Source of the DNA: a candidate division FCPU426 bacterium
GTDB taxonomy: Bacteria; Oederibacteriota; PGYV01; Palsa-1178
NCBI GenBank assembly: GCA_963840035.1
Contig: CAWIXE010000002.1
Span: forward strand, 736,001-800,000
Direction: 5' to 3'
Length of the DNA: 64,000 bases
A model generated the notes under the pieces. The model was not told the origin of the DNA, did not search any database, and saw only the letters and a program-made list of their open reading frames with translations. Of the stretch, positions 13,163-62,341 are shown piece by piece; position 1 is the stretch's first letter; each line of letters starts with the position of its first letter. A program made the translations under genes and the position numbers.

Positions 13163-13225
13163 GTAGAGACGCAGCTTGCTGCGTCTCAAACGTTGAAGGC
13201 AAGACACAGCAAGCTGTGTCTCTAC
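13163..13225. repeat. GTAG-type REP doublet (REPIN-like), family A
   Basis: GTAGAGACGCAGCTTGCTGCGTCTC (13163-13187) and an inverted copy reading GTAGAGACACAGCTTGCTGTGTCTT on - (13201-13225). Confidence 0.85.
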
Positions 13226-58144: not shown

Positions 58145-59369
58145 CTATTCAATCCGTATTTTCTTTATCTTCGCGCCTTTATAATAATACCGCAGTATCT
58201 CGTCGTAATACCTGCCTTCGTCAGCCATCTGACGGGCGCCTTCCTGGGACATGCCCACGCCGTGGCCCCAGCCTTTACCGGTGAAGTAAAACATGTCCCC
58301 GCGCTTCTGGACCTCAAAATTAGTCGACTTGAGCTGGTCAACTCCTATGTAGGCGCGCAGGTCCTTGCCTTTTATTGGGGCGTCCCTGTTTACCCCGTGT
58401 ATTATTGCGTTCTTTACCCTGTCGCTTGACGTCCTTTCAGTCACGCTTATGTCGTTTATGTATCCCGTATCCAGCCCGTTTTTGGCAAAGAGTTTGCCCA
58501 GCTTATCAGCGTCAATGGAATACTCCCATTTGAACTTTTTAGCGTTGGTGCTGTACGGGTCATCCACGCCCTGCAGATAGGTCATGTCTGCCTCCCCACA
58601 CTTCCTCTGATGACGCGGTCCTCCCGCCTGAATTGGCGTGAAAAAATGCCTGTATGACTTCGCCGTTGTATGAAAGCACCTCTCCGGCTGTTTCATCTAT
58701 GGCGCTGTTTGTCGGCGCGGCTTCGACGTCCCTGCCGCTATACACTTGAGAAGCGACTGAACAATCCAGGTCATATTCAGGGGTTTTATTCTTGAGCCTG
58801 TTATATATGGCAAAAGACCTTGCCGCTACCGCCTGCGCTTTTAAAACTTCCTTTTCCCAGCTGTAGGATACTTCCGAAGGAAGCACACCGTAAAGGTATT
58901 GTTCAAGTTCCAGCTTGTTTACCAGCATTAATGTGCCGCTTTTTAGAAAAACCATGAAAGAACCGCGGTATGATTTTTTATTAAAGACGAGGTATCCGTC
59001 TTTACATGTAATTTCGAGTAATTTTTTACCGGTGTCGTCCCCGTTAATTGATATGAAGCCATCAGGCAGCGCGGTAATGACGAACTTCTTCCCTTCAGCC
59101 ACGGATGAATCGGCAATTGATGCCTGTCCGCTGGAGGAAACTCCAAGAGGGCCTGATGATTTGGCGAGAAGGACTTTAACCATTATGACTTTTGAGTGTT
59201 CGTCCGGCTGCTCCGAAGCGTTATAGGTTTTGACTTCCTTGGATTTGAGTTCTTCTTTTGTTATTTTGACAGTTCTTCCTGTGCCCAGGTTTCTTGTAGA
59301 CATGGAAACGCATGAAGTAAGCATGGCCAGAGCGCAGGCTGAAACAATCAGGATTGAAGGCCTGTTCAT
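58145..59369 (-). pseudogene. SpoIID/LytB-domain lipoprotein interrupted by a frameshift near 58590
   Basis: N-part: lipobox LTSC, LEQYLYGV.PSE, LKAQAVAARS, SQVY.G, EEVWGG. It continues in another frame as DMTYLQGVDDPYS...GKGWGHGVGMSQEGA...ILRYYY. Confidence 0.75.
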
Positions 59370-59582: not shown

Positions 59583-61286
59583 TTATCCGGCTGTCGCTGA
59601 AATAACTTCGTCTATGGTTGTCATGCCGCGCAGCATTTTTGCCACGGCAGACTGGCGAAGCGATCTCATTCCGCTTTTTAAAGCCATTTCCTTTATGACA
59701 GTGGCGTCAGAGCCTTTTAATATGGTCTTTTTCAGATCATCGCCGATTTCCATGAGCTCATATATGGCGACCCTGCCTTTATAACCCGAGCCGTTGCATG
59801 TCGGGCAACCCTGGCCTTTCATGAACGTGGCGCCCTTTGCCATCTCAGCTGTAATGCCGACAGATTCCAGAAGTTCAGGCGTAAGCTGGATTGGCTGTCC
59901 GCAATCCCTGCAGACCTTTCTTACAAGCCTCTGGGCGAGTACGAGTATTACGGCAGAGCCGATATAGAAAGGCTCTATGCCCATGTCTTCGAGCCTGCTT
60001 ATGGTCGTGGGCGCGTCATTTGTGTGAAGCGTGGATATTACAAGGTGGCCGGTTAAGGCGGCTTTTATGGCGATCTCGGCTGTTTCCTGGTCCCTGATTT
60101 CTCCGACCATTATTACATCCGGGTCCTGCCTTAAGAAAGAGCGCAGCGTGCTGGCGAAGGTGAGTTCGGCCTCCGGGTTCATCTGCACCTGGTTGATGTT
60201 TGGAAGGTTATATTCGACCGGGTCTTCTGCGGTCATGATATTTATGTCCGGGCTGTTTATGGTGGAAAGCGCCGAATAAAGCGTGGTAGTCTTACCGCTT
60301 CCCGTGGGCCCCGTTACAAGCAATATGCCGTAGGGCGCGTTAATGGCTTTCTGGAATTTTGTAAGTTCTTCCGGCTCAAAGCCGAGTTTTGTCAGGTCGA
60401 GCTGGAGGTTGGTCTGGTCCAAAATACGCATGACTATCTTTTCGCCCCAGACTGTCGGCAGCGTCGATACGCGCAGGTCAATGGTGCGGTCCTTTACTTT
60501 TATCTTGATCCTGCCGTCCTGAGGTTTTCTTTTCTCAATGATATCAAGGCGCGCCATAACTTTATAGCGCGATGTTAATGCCCTTTTATATGACACTGGC
60601 GGAGATGGCTGTTCTATGAGCGAGCCGTCTATCCTGTAGCGTATTTTTATCTCTTTTTCAAATGGTTCGACATGGATATCAGAGGCGCCCTTACCCACGG
60701 CGTCGGCAATGAGTGAGTTACAAAGCCTGATAACAGGCGCTTCATCCACGGATTCAGAGTCTTCAGCCTGTTGCTGCTGGTCCTTTAGAATCTCAAGTTC
60801 GTCTTCCCCTGAACCGGACATTTCTTTAAGCGTTTCGGCTGTTGCGCTTTTGTCCTCTTTTTTCATTCCCTGGTCTATTGCAAGTTTGATATATGATTCA
60901 GGCGCCATGCCGAGTTCCACTTCAGCGCCGCCTTTGAACTTGAATTCTTTCATGAAAGAGGAAAGCTCAGGGTGCATGGGATCGGCGCACGCGAATATGA
61001 TGGCGCTGCCTTCCCTGCGTATCGGGAAAATGCTGAGGGCTTCAGCTTTGGAACGAGGTATTATTGAAAGCAATGTGGGGTCGACTTCCACGGCCATTAA
61101 GTCTATATAATCAACTCCGTAATGGTTGGCGAGCCGCTTTGTTATCTCTTCCTCGTCAGCCCCCAAAAGAGCGAGGTTAAATCCCACACCCGATTTATTC
61201 TGAGCCTGCATTTCTTTGGCTTTGTCATACATTTCATCGGAGATAAGCCCGTCGTCGATAAGTTTTTTCCAGATGCCGGTCGCCAT
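59583..61286 (-). CDS. pilB: Type IV pilus assembly ATPase PilB/GspE
   Basis: ASDIHVEP, PQDGR, GPTGSGKTT, EDPVEY, LRQDPDVIMVGEIRD, TLHTND, tetra-Cys motif. Confidence 0.93.
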   Translation of the reverse strand: MATGIWKKLIDDGLISDEMYDKAKEMQAQNKSGVGFNLALLGADEEEITKRLANHYGVDYIDLMAVEVDPTLLSIIPRSKAEALSIFPIRREGSAIIFACADPMHPELSSFMKEFKFKGGAEVELGMAPESYIKLAIDQGMKKEDKSATAETLKEMSGSGEDELEILKDQQQQAEDSESVDEAPVIRLCNSLIADAVGKGASDIHVEPFEKEIKIRYRIDGSLIEQPSPPVSYKRALTSRYKVMARLDIIEKRKPQDGRIKIKVKDRTIDLRVSTLPTVWGEKIVMRILDQTNLQLDLTKLGFEPEELTKFQKAINAPYGILLVTGPTGSGKTTTLYSALSTINSPDINIMTAEDPVEYNLPNINQVQMNPEAELTFASTLRSFLRQDPDVIMVGEIRDQETAEIAIKAALTGHLVISTLHTNDAPTTISRLEDMGIEPFYIGSAVILVLAQRLVRKVCRDCGQPIQLTPELLESVGITAEMAKGATFMKGQGCPTCNGSGYKGRVAIYELMEIGDDLKKTILKGSDATVIKEMALKSGMRSLRQSAVAKMLRGMTTIDEVISATAG

Positions 61287-61520
61287 GAAGCCTCCTCAAG
61301 GTTGATACTTGGTGAAGTCAAATGTCAAAAGTCAAAACTCAAAAGTGGAACTTGAAGTCAAAATCCCCAGAAACAATTATAAATGGCAAATCGTAAATAT
61401 ATTAGTATTATATAAGGTTTTTAGGTGAAAGTAAAGTGCGATATAATTGGTGGTATTGTATATAATAGTGTGTAAATTCATTTTGGCCGTAAAATATGTT
61501 TGTTTCCATTATAAACGACT

Positions 61521-61609
61521 TCCCCCTCTCCTCTTAGGAGAGGGGCCGGGGTGAGGTGAAACCAATTGGTTTGTTCCCCTCACCCTACCCTCTCCCAAGG
61601 GGAGAGGGA
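61521..61609. repeat. Inverted doublet of the CCCTCACCC-CCTCTCC repeat (BoxC-like)
   Basis: CCCCTCTCC-TCTTA-GGAGAGGGGCCGGGGTGAGG and, inverted, CCCCTCACCCTACCCTCTCCC-AAG-GGGAGAGGG. Confidence 0.8.
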
Positions 61610-61761
61610 AAAAAGAACAAAACAATTTACACACAATTCTTGACAATATCATAATTGGTTCGATATTTTTGATTTTCGCAGTGGCGAGCCGGCTTGCGCG
61701 TTGAGCAACAGCGAAAACGTGTGGCTCGTCAGGGTTTATGGTTTGTTTGATTTTGCCTTTC

Positions 61762-61786
61762 GTAGAGCCGCCGCTTGCTGCGGCTC
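61762..61786 (+). repeat. GTAG-type REP (family A-like), left arm
   Basis: GTAGAGCCGCCGCTTGCTGCGGCTC. Confidence 0.88.
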
Positions 61787-61812
61787 AGACGAGGTCTTAA
61801 CTTATCGCGGAT

Positions 61813-62220
61813 TTAGTAGTTGTTGGTTTTATTTCTTTCCAGTTTTTCGTAAATCTTTTCCTTTTTCATCTGCACTTCGTTTTCCCTTATTCTTCTGTAT
61901 TCGGATAAGATTTTAGCGTCTGTTTCCCATTCGAAATCAGAAATTAAGTATGTGATTATAGCGGTTAATCCAAATCCTGCGGCTGTTAAGGCTAAAAATG
62001 TTGGCTTCAATTCTTCTGGTGCGGCCATAGTGATTCCCGAACCAATAACACCGACGCTAATTGCAAACATACTGGAAAACATTGCTTGTTGTTGTGTTTT
62101 TTGTGTAATGATTTCTTCCTGGTACTTTTTATCCATGTTGTAATAGCTTGTAGGCAAATGTGCGCAGCCTGACAATAATAAAATTGTTGTAATAGTTATT
62201 GCGTGTTTTAAGATTTTCAT
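61813..62220 (-). CDS. AT-rich orphan lipoprotein with two hydrophobic helices
   Basis: Start 62220 after a GGGGA RBS. MKILK...LLSGC lipobox; charged helical C-tail. Confidence 0.75.
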   Translation of the reverse strand: MKILKHAITITTILLLSGCAHLPTSYYNMDKKYQEEIITQKTQQQAMFSSMFAISVGVIGSGITMAAPEELKPTFLALTAAGFGLTAIITYLISDFEWETDAKILSEYRRIRENEVQMKKEKIYEKLERNKTNNY

Positions 62221-62232
62221 CGTTTCCCCATT

Positions 62233-62257
62233 GAGCCGCAGCAAGCGGCGGCTCTAC
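62233..62257 (-). repeat. GTAG-type REP (family A-like), right arm
   Basis: Exact reverse complement of 61762-61786. Confidence 0.88.
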
Positions 62258-62341
62258 AAAAACGTTTTGTTTTGAATTGTCAATCGACAATCGTTAATAA
62301 ATGCAGTTAATTGAAAATTGAAAATATAAAATTGAAAATTA

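What the first reader, a model, noticed from the sequence alone, without database searches (positions are those of the whole stretch)
61762..62257. A complete foreign-looking gene enclosed by two identical inverted REPs (cargo-carrying REPIN)
Seen: GTAGAGCCGCCGCTTGCTGCGGCTC and its exact reverse complement, GTAG ends outward, enclose 446 bp that is almost entirely one lipoprotein ORF with its RBS. The start is 12 bp from one arm and the stop 26 bp from the other. The insert looks more AT-rich than dnaE/pilB (by eye). A related doublet at 13163-13225 has the same geometry with a 13-bp spacer, like an empty version. Established: REPINs are non-autonomous RAYT-mobilised units, usually with short non-coding spacers. 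Inference: a REP-bounded, promoterless single-gene cassette, suggesting RAYT-mediated gene capture or shuffling. This is the best candidate for an undescribed system here.
Basis: partly seen in the sequence, partly recalled or inferred. Interest (0 to 1): 0.75.

Follow-up and report, generated by a model that had tools for sequence, protein, structure and literature searches.

The report
Orphan gene inside a REP pair
A small AT-rich gene with no known relatives sits tightly between two identical, mirror-facing hairpin repeats, at a spot where related bacteria lack it; it was likely caught once inside an ordinary selfish-repeat pair rather than moving as a reusable cassette, which hints that such pairs are occasional entry points for foreign genes.

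Summary
Confirmed: two identical 25-bp GTAG-headed REP hairpins, GTAG outward, enclose 446 bp, of which 408 bp is one 135-aa predicted lipoprotein gene (35.5% GC). It has no credible homologue in 5.8 billion proteins or 40 relatives. In 8 relatives dnaE and pilB are 28-142 bp apart, so the gene is an insertion.

The genome holds about 850 GTAG-REPs, 208 empty doublets and 8 RAYT loci, so one flanked gene proves little. But partner-family pairs in this geometry enclose 4 non-RAYT genes against 0.8 expected (P=0.005; 0.035 without this one), and 3 of the 4 are AT-rich orphans.

Against a mobile cassette: every filled pair is single-copy, there is no target duplication here, no RAYT gene lies beside this REP family, and the same gap holds four other repeats. 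The 13163 doublet is a sister family, not the empty form.

Best reading: a one-off capture in a REP doublet's spacer (0.5). Close rival: REPs landed around a gene already there (0.35). The scan noted this pattern before, at two other loci of this genome and in other genomes. New variant of a known kind.

The parts
62233..62257 (-). Upstream REP arm (GTAG tag plus imperfect hairpin), family A
   Evidence: exact match; 46 family copies in the genome
62221..62232 (-). 12-bp leader: the first 4-7 nt resemble the family's inner flank; GGGGA ribosome-binding site at 62225-62229
   Evidence: 3 of 116 REP-to-ATG distances are this short
61813..62220 (-). Orphan gene, 135 aa: predicted lipoprotein (Cys19), two hydrophobic helices, charged C-terminal helix
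   Evidence: (all-helical single-sequence model, pLDDT 67.7)
61787..61812 (+). 26-bp trailer; the first 8-15 nt match the family's inner flank pattern
61762..61786 (+). Downstream REP arm, identical to the upstream arm, inverted
61678..61730 (+). Decayed long-loop REP of another GTAG family, outside the pair
   Evidence: 6 related copies elsewhere
61451..61651 (.). About 200-bp repeat with 33-nt inverted ends around a CCCTCTCC-type hairpin doublet; not part of the REP pair
   Evidence: 24 hits covering at least 80% of it, this copy included
62272..62341 (.). 7-base-unit repeat hairpin right after the dnaE stop; not part of the REP pair
61313..61375 (.). 7-base-unit repeat arm upstream of pilB
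59583..61286 (-). PilB/GspE-type ATPase gene, downstream neighbour
   Evidence: PF00437, PF05157
62342..64000 (-). 3' part of dnaE, upstream neighbour and likely source of read-through transcription
   Evidence: PF17657, PF14579
13163..13225 (.). Empty REP heterodimer of a sister family, 13-bp spacer; not the empty form of this pair

Best explanation
Two identical REP hairpins of a 46-copy family face outward around an almost bare AT-rich orphan gene that relatives lack at this site, and the gene likely entered the spacer of an existing REP doublet in a one-off event, probably after a RAYT nuclease nicked single-stranded DNA beside a REP. Shown: anatomy, foreign composition, absence in kin, single copy, REP/RAYT context, and a modest excess of such filled pairs. 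Inferred: (1) an empty doublet stood here first; (2) a RAYT acting in trans, probably one of the two sister-family enzymes, cut near the REP; (3) foreign DNA was joined in by RAYT strand transfer or by host repair of the break, replacing the doublet's 40-70 bp middle; (4) the gene is likely transcribed by read-through from dnaE, since no promoter-like site precedes it. The pair acts as a landing place, not as a cassette that has been shown to move.
For: Of 54 non-RAYT genes with a REP within 160 bp on both sides, 4 lie inside a partner-family GTAG-outward pair. Permutation gives a mean of 0.77, P=0.005, or 0.035 without this case. Low-GC3 genes 3 of 7 against host-like 1 of 47 (p=0.005). Among genes of 100-220 aa, 3 of 38 low-GC3 against 1 of 829 others (p=0.0003; 0.005 without this case; D=160, GC3 at most 0.40). 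At two sister loci (G000:C2:114911-115527 and C2:130991-131700) the conserved spacer of another REP family is visibly split by an AT-rich ORF, and neither ORF was found in 98 other genomes of the phylum. Family-A spacers take insertions: 3 of the 7 other A-A outward pairs hold REPs of another family. The insert is nearly the bare ORF; 3 of 116 REP-to-ATG distances are 12 nt or less. E. coli TnpA_REP cuts ssDNA at CT on either side of a REP, over more than 400 nt, and does strand transfer with low specificity (PMC3333891, passages). REPs are known insertion hot spots for IS elements (PMC1525189, abstract).
Against: The numbers are small and this case was picked for the property. Partner-family share among outward pairs is 4 of 7, against 9 of 47 for inward and direct pairs: p=0.05, and 0.12 without this case. 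With size control among doubly flanked genes it is 3 of 6 against 1 of 18, p=0.035, and 0.11 without this case; at D=100 it is not significant. An earlier adjacency count that missed one locus gave 3 of 9 against 9 of 65. Family-A spacers are not conserved, so no split spacer can be shown here; 3 of 4 empty spacer middles are unique in the genome. No RAYT gene lies beside family A. No close relative shows an empty doublet at this site: the relatives read have no REP there. Outward pairs also form around resident DNA: two RAYT genes are cut by their own REPs, and a host-like TfoX_N gene sits in an identical-arm pair. Foreign genes are no more often next to a REP than host genes (24 of 134 against 434 of 2531, p=0.81).
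Confidence: 0.5

Rival explanations
1. The gene arrived first by an unrelated route. A family-A REP then landed on one side and a local inverted copy landed on the other, jumping the small gene because insertions inside it are selected against.
For: About 850 REP calls, one per 4 kb. The 1,055-bp gap holds four other repeat elements. Neighbouring REPs are partner-family in 9 of 47 inward or direct cases, above the 8-9% random level. Outward pairs enclose pieces of resident RAYT genes and a host-like TfoX_N gene whose homologues in 7 relatives show no convincing REP. Empty-doublet spacers are mostly unique.
Against: It does not explain why 3 of the 4 enclosed genes are AT-rich orphans even after size control, nor the split conserved spacers at the two sister loci, nor the loss of nearly all upstream DNA.
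Confidence: 0.35
2. The REP-gene-REP unit is a true cargo-carrying REPIN that a RAYT excises and reinserts as a single-stranded circle, a gene-cassette system.
For: The geometry equals that of 3 intact RAYT genes and 2 RAYT fragments in this genome. The arms are identical and can pair as ssDNA. RAYT cleavage reaches over 400 nt (PMC3333891, passages).
Against: One copy only. No second filled family-A pair was seen in 14 metagenome loci, 1 genome locus or 13 relative loci; part of that output was cut. No homologue anywhere searched. Junction types differ among the filled pairs. RAYT genes in the same geometry are reported as single-copy and non-mobile (PMC3337134 parts 1-2; PMC5581495 passages).
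Confidence: 0.07
3. The gene came in on transforming DNA from a donor that shares this REP family, with the two REPs serving as short homology anchors for host recombination; no RAYT step at the moment of entry.
For: The same REP occurs in 3 of 7 other genomes of the family. A PilB-type ATPase gene, often part of DNA-uptake pili (established knowledge), lies next door.
Against: 25-30 bp anchors are short for RecA (established knowledge). The donor would itself need a REP-flanked gene. No donor was found.
Confidence: 0.05
4. A former REPtron whose RAYT gene was replaced by the orphan gene, leaving family A without its enzyme.
For: Family A has no adjacent RAYT, and the 446-bp spacer is near REPtron size, 551-669 bp.
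Against: No RAYT remnant at the site. REPtrons here carry several REPs nearby, whereas this site has one family-A REP per side. At least two other abundant families also lack an adjacent RAYT.
Confidence: 0.03

Closest known systems
REPIN / REP doublet with RAYT (PMC3337134, parts 1-2 of 3 read; GTAG dimers in PMC3733652, passages)
   Same: Two GTAG-tagged REPs of one family in inverted orientation, extragenic, from a multi-copy family, in a genome with several RAYTs.
   Different: Published spacings are 18-112 bp and non-coding, and the spacer keeps a hairpin. Here it is 446 bp, 91% coding, and the strong pairing is between the arms. No cognate RAYT was found.
REPtron (tnpA_REP flanked by REPs; PMC3333891, PMC8266576, passages)
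   Same: One short gene enclosed by inverted REPs, GTAG outward; five such RAYT cases in this genome.
   Different: The enclosed gene is a predicted membrane lipoprotein with no match to Y1/HUH families, and there is no REP cluster around it.
REP-targeting IS elements (ISPsy8, ISPa11, ISPpu9/10, ISRm19/22; PMC1525189, abstract only)
   Same: Foreign DNA inserted at REP sites.
   Different: The insert has no transposase and no ends of its own, and lies between two intact REPs.
Integron mobilization unit and MITE-flanked composite elements (PMC3184786, passages)
   Same: Two identical non-autonomous repeats flank passenger genes.
   Different: Those repeats are 288-439 bp TIR elements, with 5-bp flanking repeats reported for one of them; mobility was shown for IMU. 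Here the arms are 25-bp REPs, with no duplication and no sign of movement.
Integron gene cassette (recalled, not from a call)
   Same: Promoterless, nearly bare ORF of unknown function bounded by ssDNA hairpins.
   Different: Two inverted REPs rather than one attC per gene, and no array.

Membership tests
GTAG-type REP (each arm) | 5' GT(A/G)G tetranucleotide followed by a palindrome | tested here: met
GTAG-type REP (each arm) | Many extragenic copies in the genome | tested here: met
   46 copies within 3 mismatches, lying between called genes or touching their ends
REPIN | Two REPs of one family in inverted orientation | tested here: met
   same geometry as 7 other family-A pairs
REPIN | Closely spaced, short non-coding spacer that keeps a hairpin | tested here: not met
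   446-bp coding spacer; 198 of 227 partner outward pairs have spacers under 100 bp
REPIN | Cognate RAYT flanked by the same REP | tested here: inconclusive
   None of 8 RAYT loci has family A beside it; two sister families do have RAYTs; the assembly is 98% complete
REPIN | Moves or excises as a unit | not testable with these tools
   single copy; no sequencing run was listed
REPtron | Enclosed gene is a Y1/HUH RAYT | tested here: not met
   no Pfam or NCBIfam match; no tblastn match to the genome's RAYTs at this site
MITE/IMU-type composite transposon | Target-site duplication outside the element | tested here: not met
   no direct repeat at matching junction positions; the longest are 6-7 nt, from the palindrome or out of register
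MITE/IMU-type composite transposon | Same unit at more than one site | tested here: not met
Integron gene cassette | attC site and cassette array | tested here: inconclusive
   by eye no array and the bounding hairpins are REPs; no attC model was run
Integron gene cassette | Integron integrase in the genome | not tested
   no search made

The most novel reading that the evidence does not exclude
REP doublets and their RAYT nucleases form an unrecognised gene-capture route: RAYT opens the spacer of a doublet and joins in foreign single-stranded DNA, so bare orphan genes are installed behind resident promoters. This genome shows 3-4 such captures among about 210 doublets. If general, sampling of foreign genes could be the host benefit that keeps single-copy RAYTs in genomes.
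Probability: 0.2. Interest if true: 0.75.

Novelty: new variant of a known kind. Interest (0 to 1): 0.4.

Why it matters
Why bacteria keep RAYT genes that cannot copy themselves is an open question (PMC5581495, passages; it floats the idea of REPINs as bait for incoming DNA, to be degraded). Filled doublets would give a testable alternative: the bait sometimes keeps the DNA. They would also be one concrete entry route for small orphan membrane genes. Five full-text searches listed no paper describing non-transposase genes inside REP doublets. The library lacks most subscription papers and I read no supplements; the REPtron and distance tables of PMC3733652 could bear on this. As it stands this is one modest statistical signal in one genome, with no sign of mobility.

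Tried and rejected
Homologues of the ORF: only itself among 14 candidates of near length; none among 984 longer candidates; itself plus one 918-aa protein at E 2.8e-4, 26% identity over residues 27-79, set aside as likely compositional and not aligned further; none in viral contigs; two weak hits in 40 relatives, E 0.009 with 2 stops inside and E 0.068, rejected; no Pfam hit over cut-off, no NCBIfam hit, one PHROG at E 0.008 on the signal peptide. Atlas: best 0.90 to a 'putative Lipoprotein' cluster with recognition below threshold, a lead only. A possible paralogue at C2:173862 (E 0.17) lies inside an unrelated 502-aa gene and was rejected. The single-sequence structure model is all-helical, pLDDT 67.7, pTM 0.42; no fold search was run. 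Sequencing runs: none was listed, which is no evidence either way. Target duplication: none. The idea that doublets have one C and one T before GTAG, as this pair does, failed: 36% observed against 47% expected. Replication in relative G003: I read 398 kb of about 2.9 Mb, found 14 hairpin calls of which about 5 look like real REPs, and stopped for lack of power. My first census missed family A (stem offset error, fixed) and counted heterodimer partners as different families (fixed). Sixteen mirror calls of one family were dropped before the counts (865 to 849). Genes come from my own crude caller, and 'foreign' is a GC3 proxy, checked by homology only for the four enclosed genes. One search's output was cut, so some loci were not seen.

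Full report
Observation. The window is G000:C2:736001-800000. The 25-mer occurs exactly at 61762-61786 (+) and 62233-62257 (-), with none expected by chance. The 446-bp spacer holds one ORF on the - strand, 62220 to 61813, 135 aa, 12 bp and 26 bp from the arms. My early searches used a 136-residue reference with one extra N-terminal residue; later ones used the true start. The protein begins with a hydrophobic stretch and LSG-C19 (lipobox, read by eye), then two hydrophobic helices and a charged tail; the single-sequence model is all-helical and of modest confidence. An ORF of this length arose in 1 of 3000 shuffles. GC is 35.5% against 48-50% in the neighbours, in the lowest 1% or so of called genes.

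The gene is an insertion. It matches only itself in the 5.8-billion-protein set, has no credible hit among 1.84 billion representatives, and none in viral contigs or 40 relatives. Of 29 relatives' dnaE loci, 0 carry it. In 8 of these, dnaE is followed by the pilB orthologue after 28-142 bp; here the gap is 1,055 bp. In several others dnaE is followed by the SpoIID-type gene or a small gene, with pilB absent from the spot. No relative of the same genus was available, so the state just before the insertion is unseen.

The arms are ordinary members of a large repeat system. The genome has about 850 GTAG-hairpin calls in some 16 family groups and 208 empty partner doublets. Family A has 46 copies and also occurs in 3 of 7 other genomes of the family. 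Eight loci carry RAYT genes or pieces with their own REPs, one confirmed as REP_Tyr_transpos below the curated cut-off. None has family A beside it. The doublet at 13163-13225 belongs to a sister family whose RAYT is on C3. The same gap also holds a 7-base-unit hairpin, a decayed REP of another family, a 200-bp repeat and a second 7-base-unit arm, so the site collects insertions.

Is a gene inside a pair more than chance? Partner-family outward pairs with spacers of 250-1000 bp number 11: five hold RAYT genes or pieces, four hold one other gene, one holds an antitoxin/PIN-like pair (one arm degenerate; names from my reading of the sequences) and one is non-coding. Among 54 non-RAYT genes with REPs on both sides, 4 are in this geometry against 0.77 by permutation (P=0.005; 0.035 without ours). 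Three of the four are AT-rich: 3 of 7 against 1 of 47 host-like genes. With size control it is 3 of 38 against 1 of 829 genes (p=0.0003; 0.005 without ours), but among doubly flanked genes only 3 of 6 against 1 of 18 (p=0.035; 0.11 without ours), and it fades at a 100-bp cut-off. Against the local-clustering control it is 4 of 7 against 9 of 47 (p=0.05; 0.12 without ours). The signal is likely real but small. Earlier notes of this scan led me to count heterodimer partners; I checked those two loci myself. In both, a conserved spacer is split by an AT-rich ORF, one with a roughly 28-bp duplication and one whose stop codon lies inside the REP. Neither ORF was found in 98 other genomes. The fourth gene is a host-like TfoX_N gene with homologues in 8 of 40 relatives; the 7 loci read are in other gene contexts and show no convincing REP.

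Junctions here. Family-A REPs carry a loose 8-15 nt inner flank. The left arm keeps it; the right arm keeps 4-7 nt and runs straight into the ribosome-binding site. So the insert is almost the bare ORF and the middle of an empty doublet (spacers 64-103 bp) is missing. There is no duplication. Three of the 7 other A-A pairs hold REPs of another family. Empty spacers are mostly unique, which also fits pairs being made by local inverted copying around whatever DNA lies between. Two RAYT genes cut by their own REPs show that this can happen.

Mechanism. I favour a one-off entry into an existing doublet (0.5). E. coli TnpA_REP binds single-stranded GTAG-REP, cuts at CT on either side, up to more than 400 nt away, and rejoins ends with low specificity (PMC3333891, passages); group 3 enzymes cut at CT or CA (PMC8266576, passages). 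That would let a nick in a spacer be healed with foreign DNA, by RAYT strand transfer or by host repair. These steps are inferred; none is shown here. REPs landing around a gene already present is a close rival (0.35). A mobile cassette is unlikely (0.07): all filled pairs are single-copy, and no second filled family-A pair was seen in the 28 outside loci fetched, part of that output being cut. Expression is likely by read-through from dnaE, as no promoter-like or terminator-like site was called between them.

Comparison and novelty. It is built like a REPtron or REPIN but fails the short-spacer test of a REPIN and the RAYT-gene test of a REPtron, so I file it as a variant and not as a member. 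Papers seen: PMC3337134 (parts 1-2 of 3); passages of PMC3333891, PMC8266576, PMC3733652, PMC3686654, PMC3184786, PMC5581495 and PMC3390384; abstract and outline of PMC1525189. Five searches listed no description of passenger genes inside REP doublets; no supplements were read. Other-genome notes of this scan describe the same pattern; I did not test them and do not count them as support.

Verdict. Observation confirmed, interpretation partly supported, new variant of a known kind, interest 0.4. The gene-capture reading has probability about 0.2 and would merit 0.75.

Noticed in passing
G000:C2:254598-255109 (L077): A TfoX_N-domain gene (115 aa, host-like codon use) inside identical outward REPs of another family; the left arm and about 25 nt of its flank are repeated directly just after the right arm.
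   Followed up: partly
G000:C3:134453-135336: A small two-gene operon that reads like an antitoxin plus a PIN-domain toxin (by eye, no family search) inside an outward pair of one REP group, one arm degenerate.
   Followed up: no
G000:C1:545095-545733 and C2:162278-162881: Two RAYT genes interrupted by REPs of their own flanking family, leaving outward pairs around gene fragments.
   Followed up: partly
G000:C1 near 1106700, C2 near 1581046, C2 near 254520: Family-A-like REPs whose loop is replaced by a 25-45 nt insert; the first two share nearly the same insert. REP loops seem to be targets for other hairpin repeats.
   Followed up: no
window 61451-61651: About 200-bp repeat with 33-nt inverted ends enclosing a CCCTCTCC-type hairpin doublet; 24 near-full-length hits in the genome. 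Its mobilising enzyme was not sought.
   Followed up: partly
window 62272-62341 and 61313-61375: 7-base-unit repeat arms after the dnaE stop and before pilB; about 200 partial matches in the genome for the first.
   Followed up: partly
window 58145-59369: The SpoIID-type gene appears split across two overlapping frames (58560-59369 and 58145-58696), whereas relatives seem to have one frame; a frameshift or an assembly error.
   Followed up: no
G000:C3:278093, C3:318387, C2:583882 (L001, L002, L006): Three long (320-335 aa) Y1_Tnp proteins with C-terminal extensions and no GTAG REP within 400 bp.
   Followed up: no
G000 against G003: REP density differs about tenfold or more: one per 4 kb here, against about 5 real-looking REPs in 398 kb of G003, which points to an expansion in this lineage.
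   Followed up: partly
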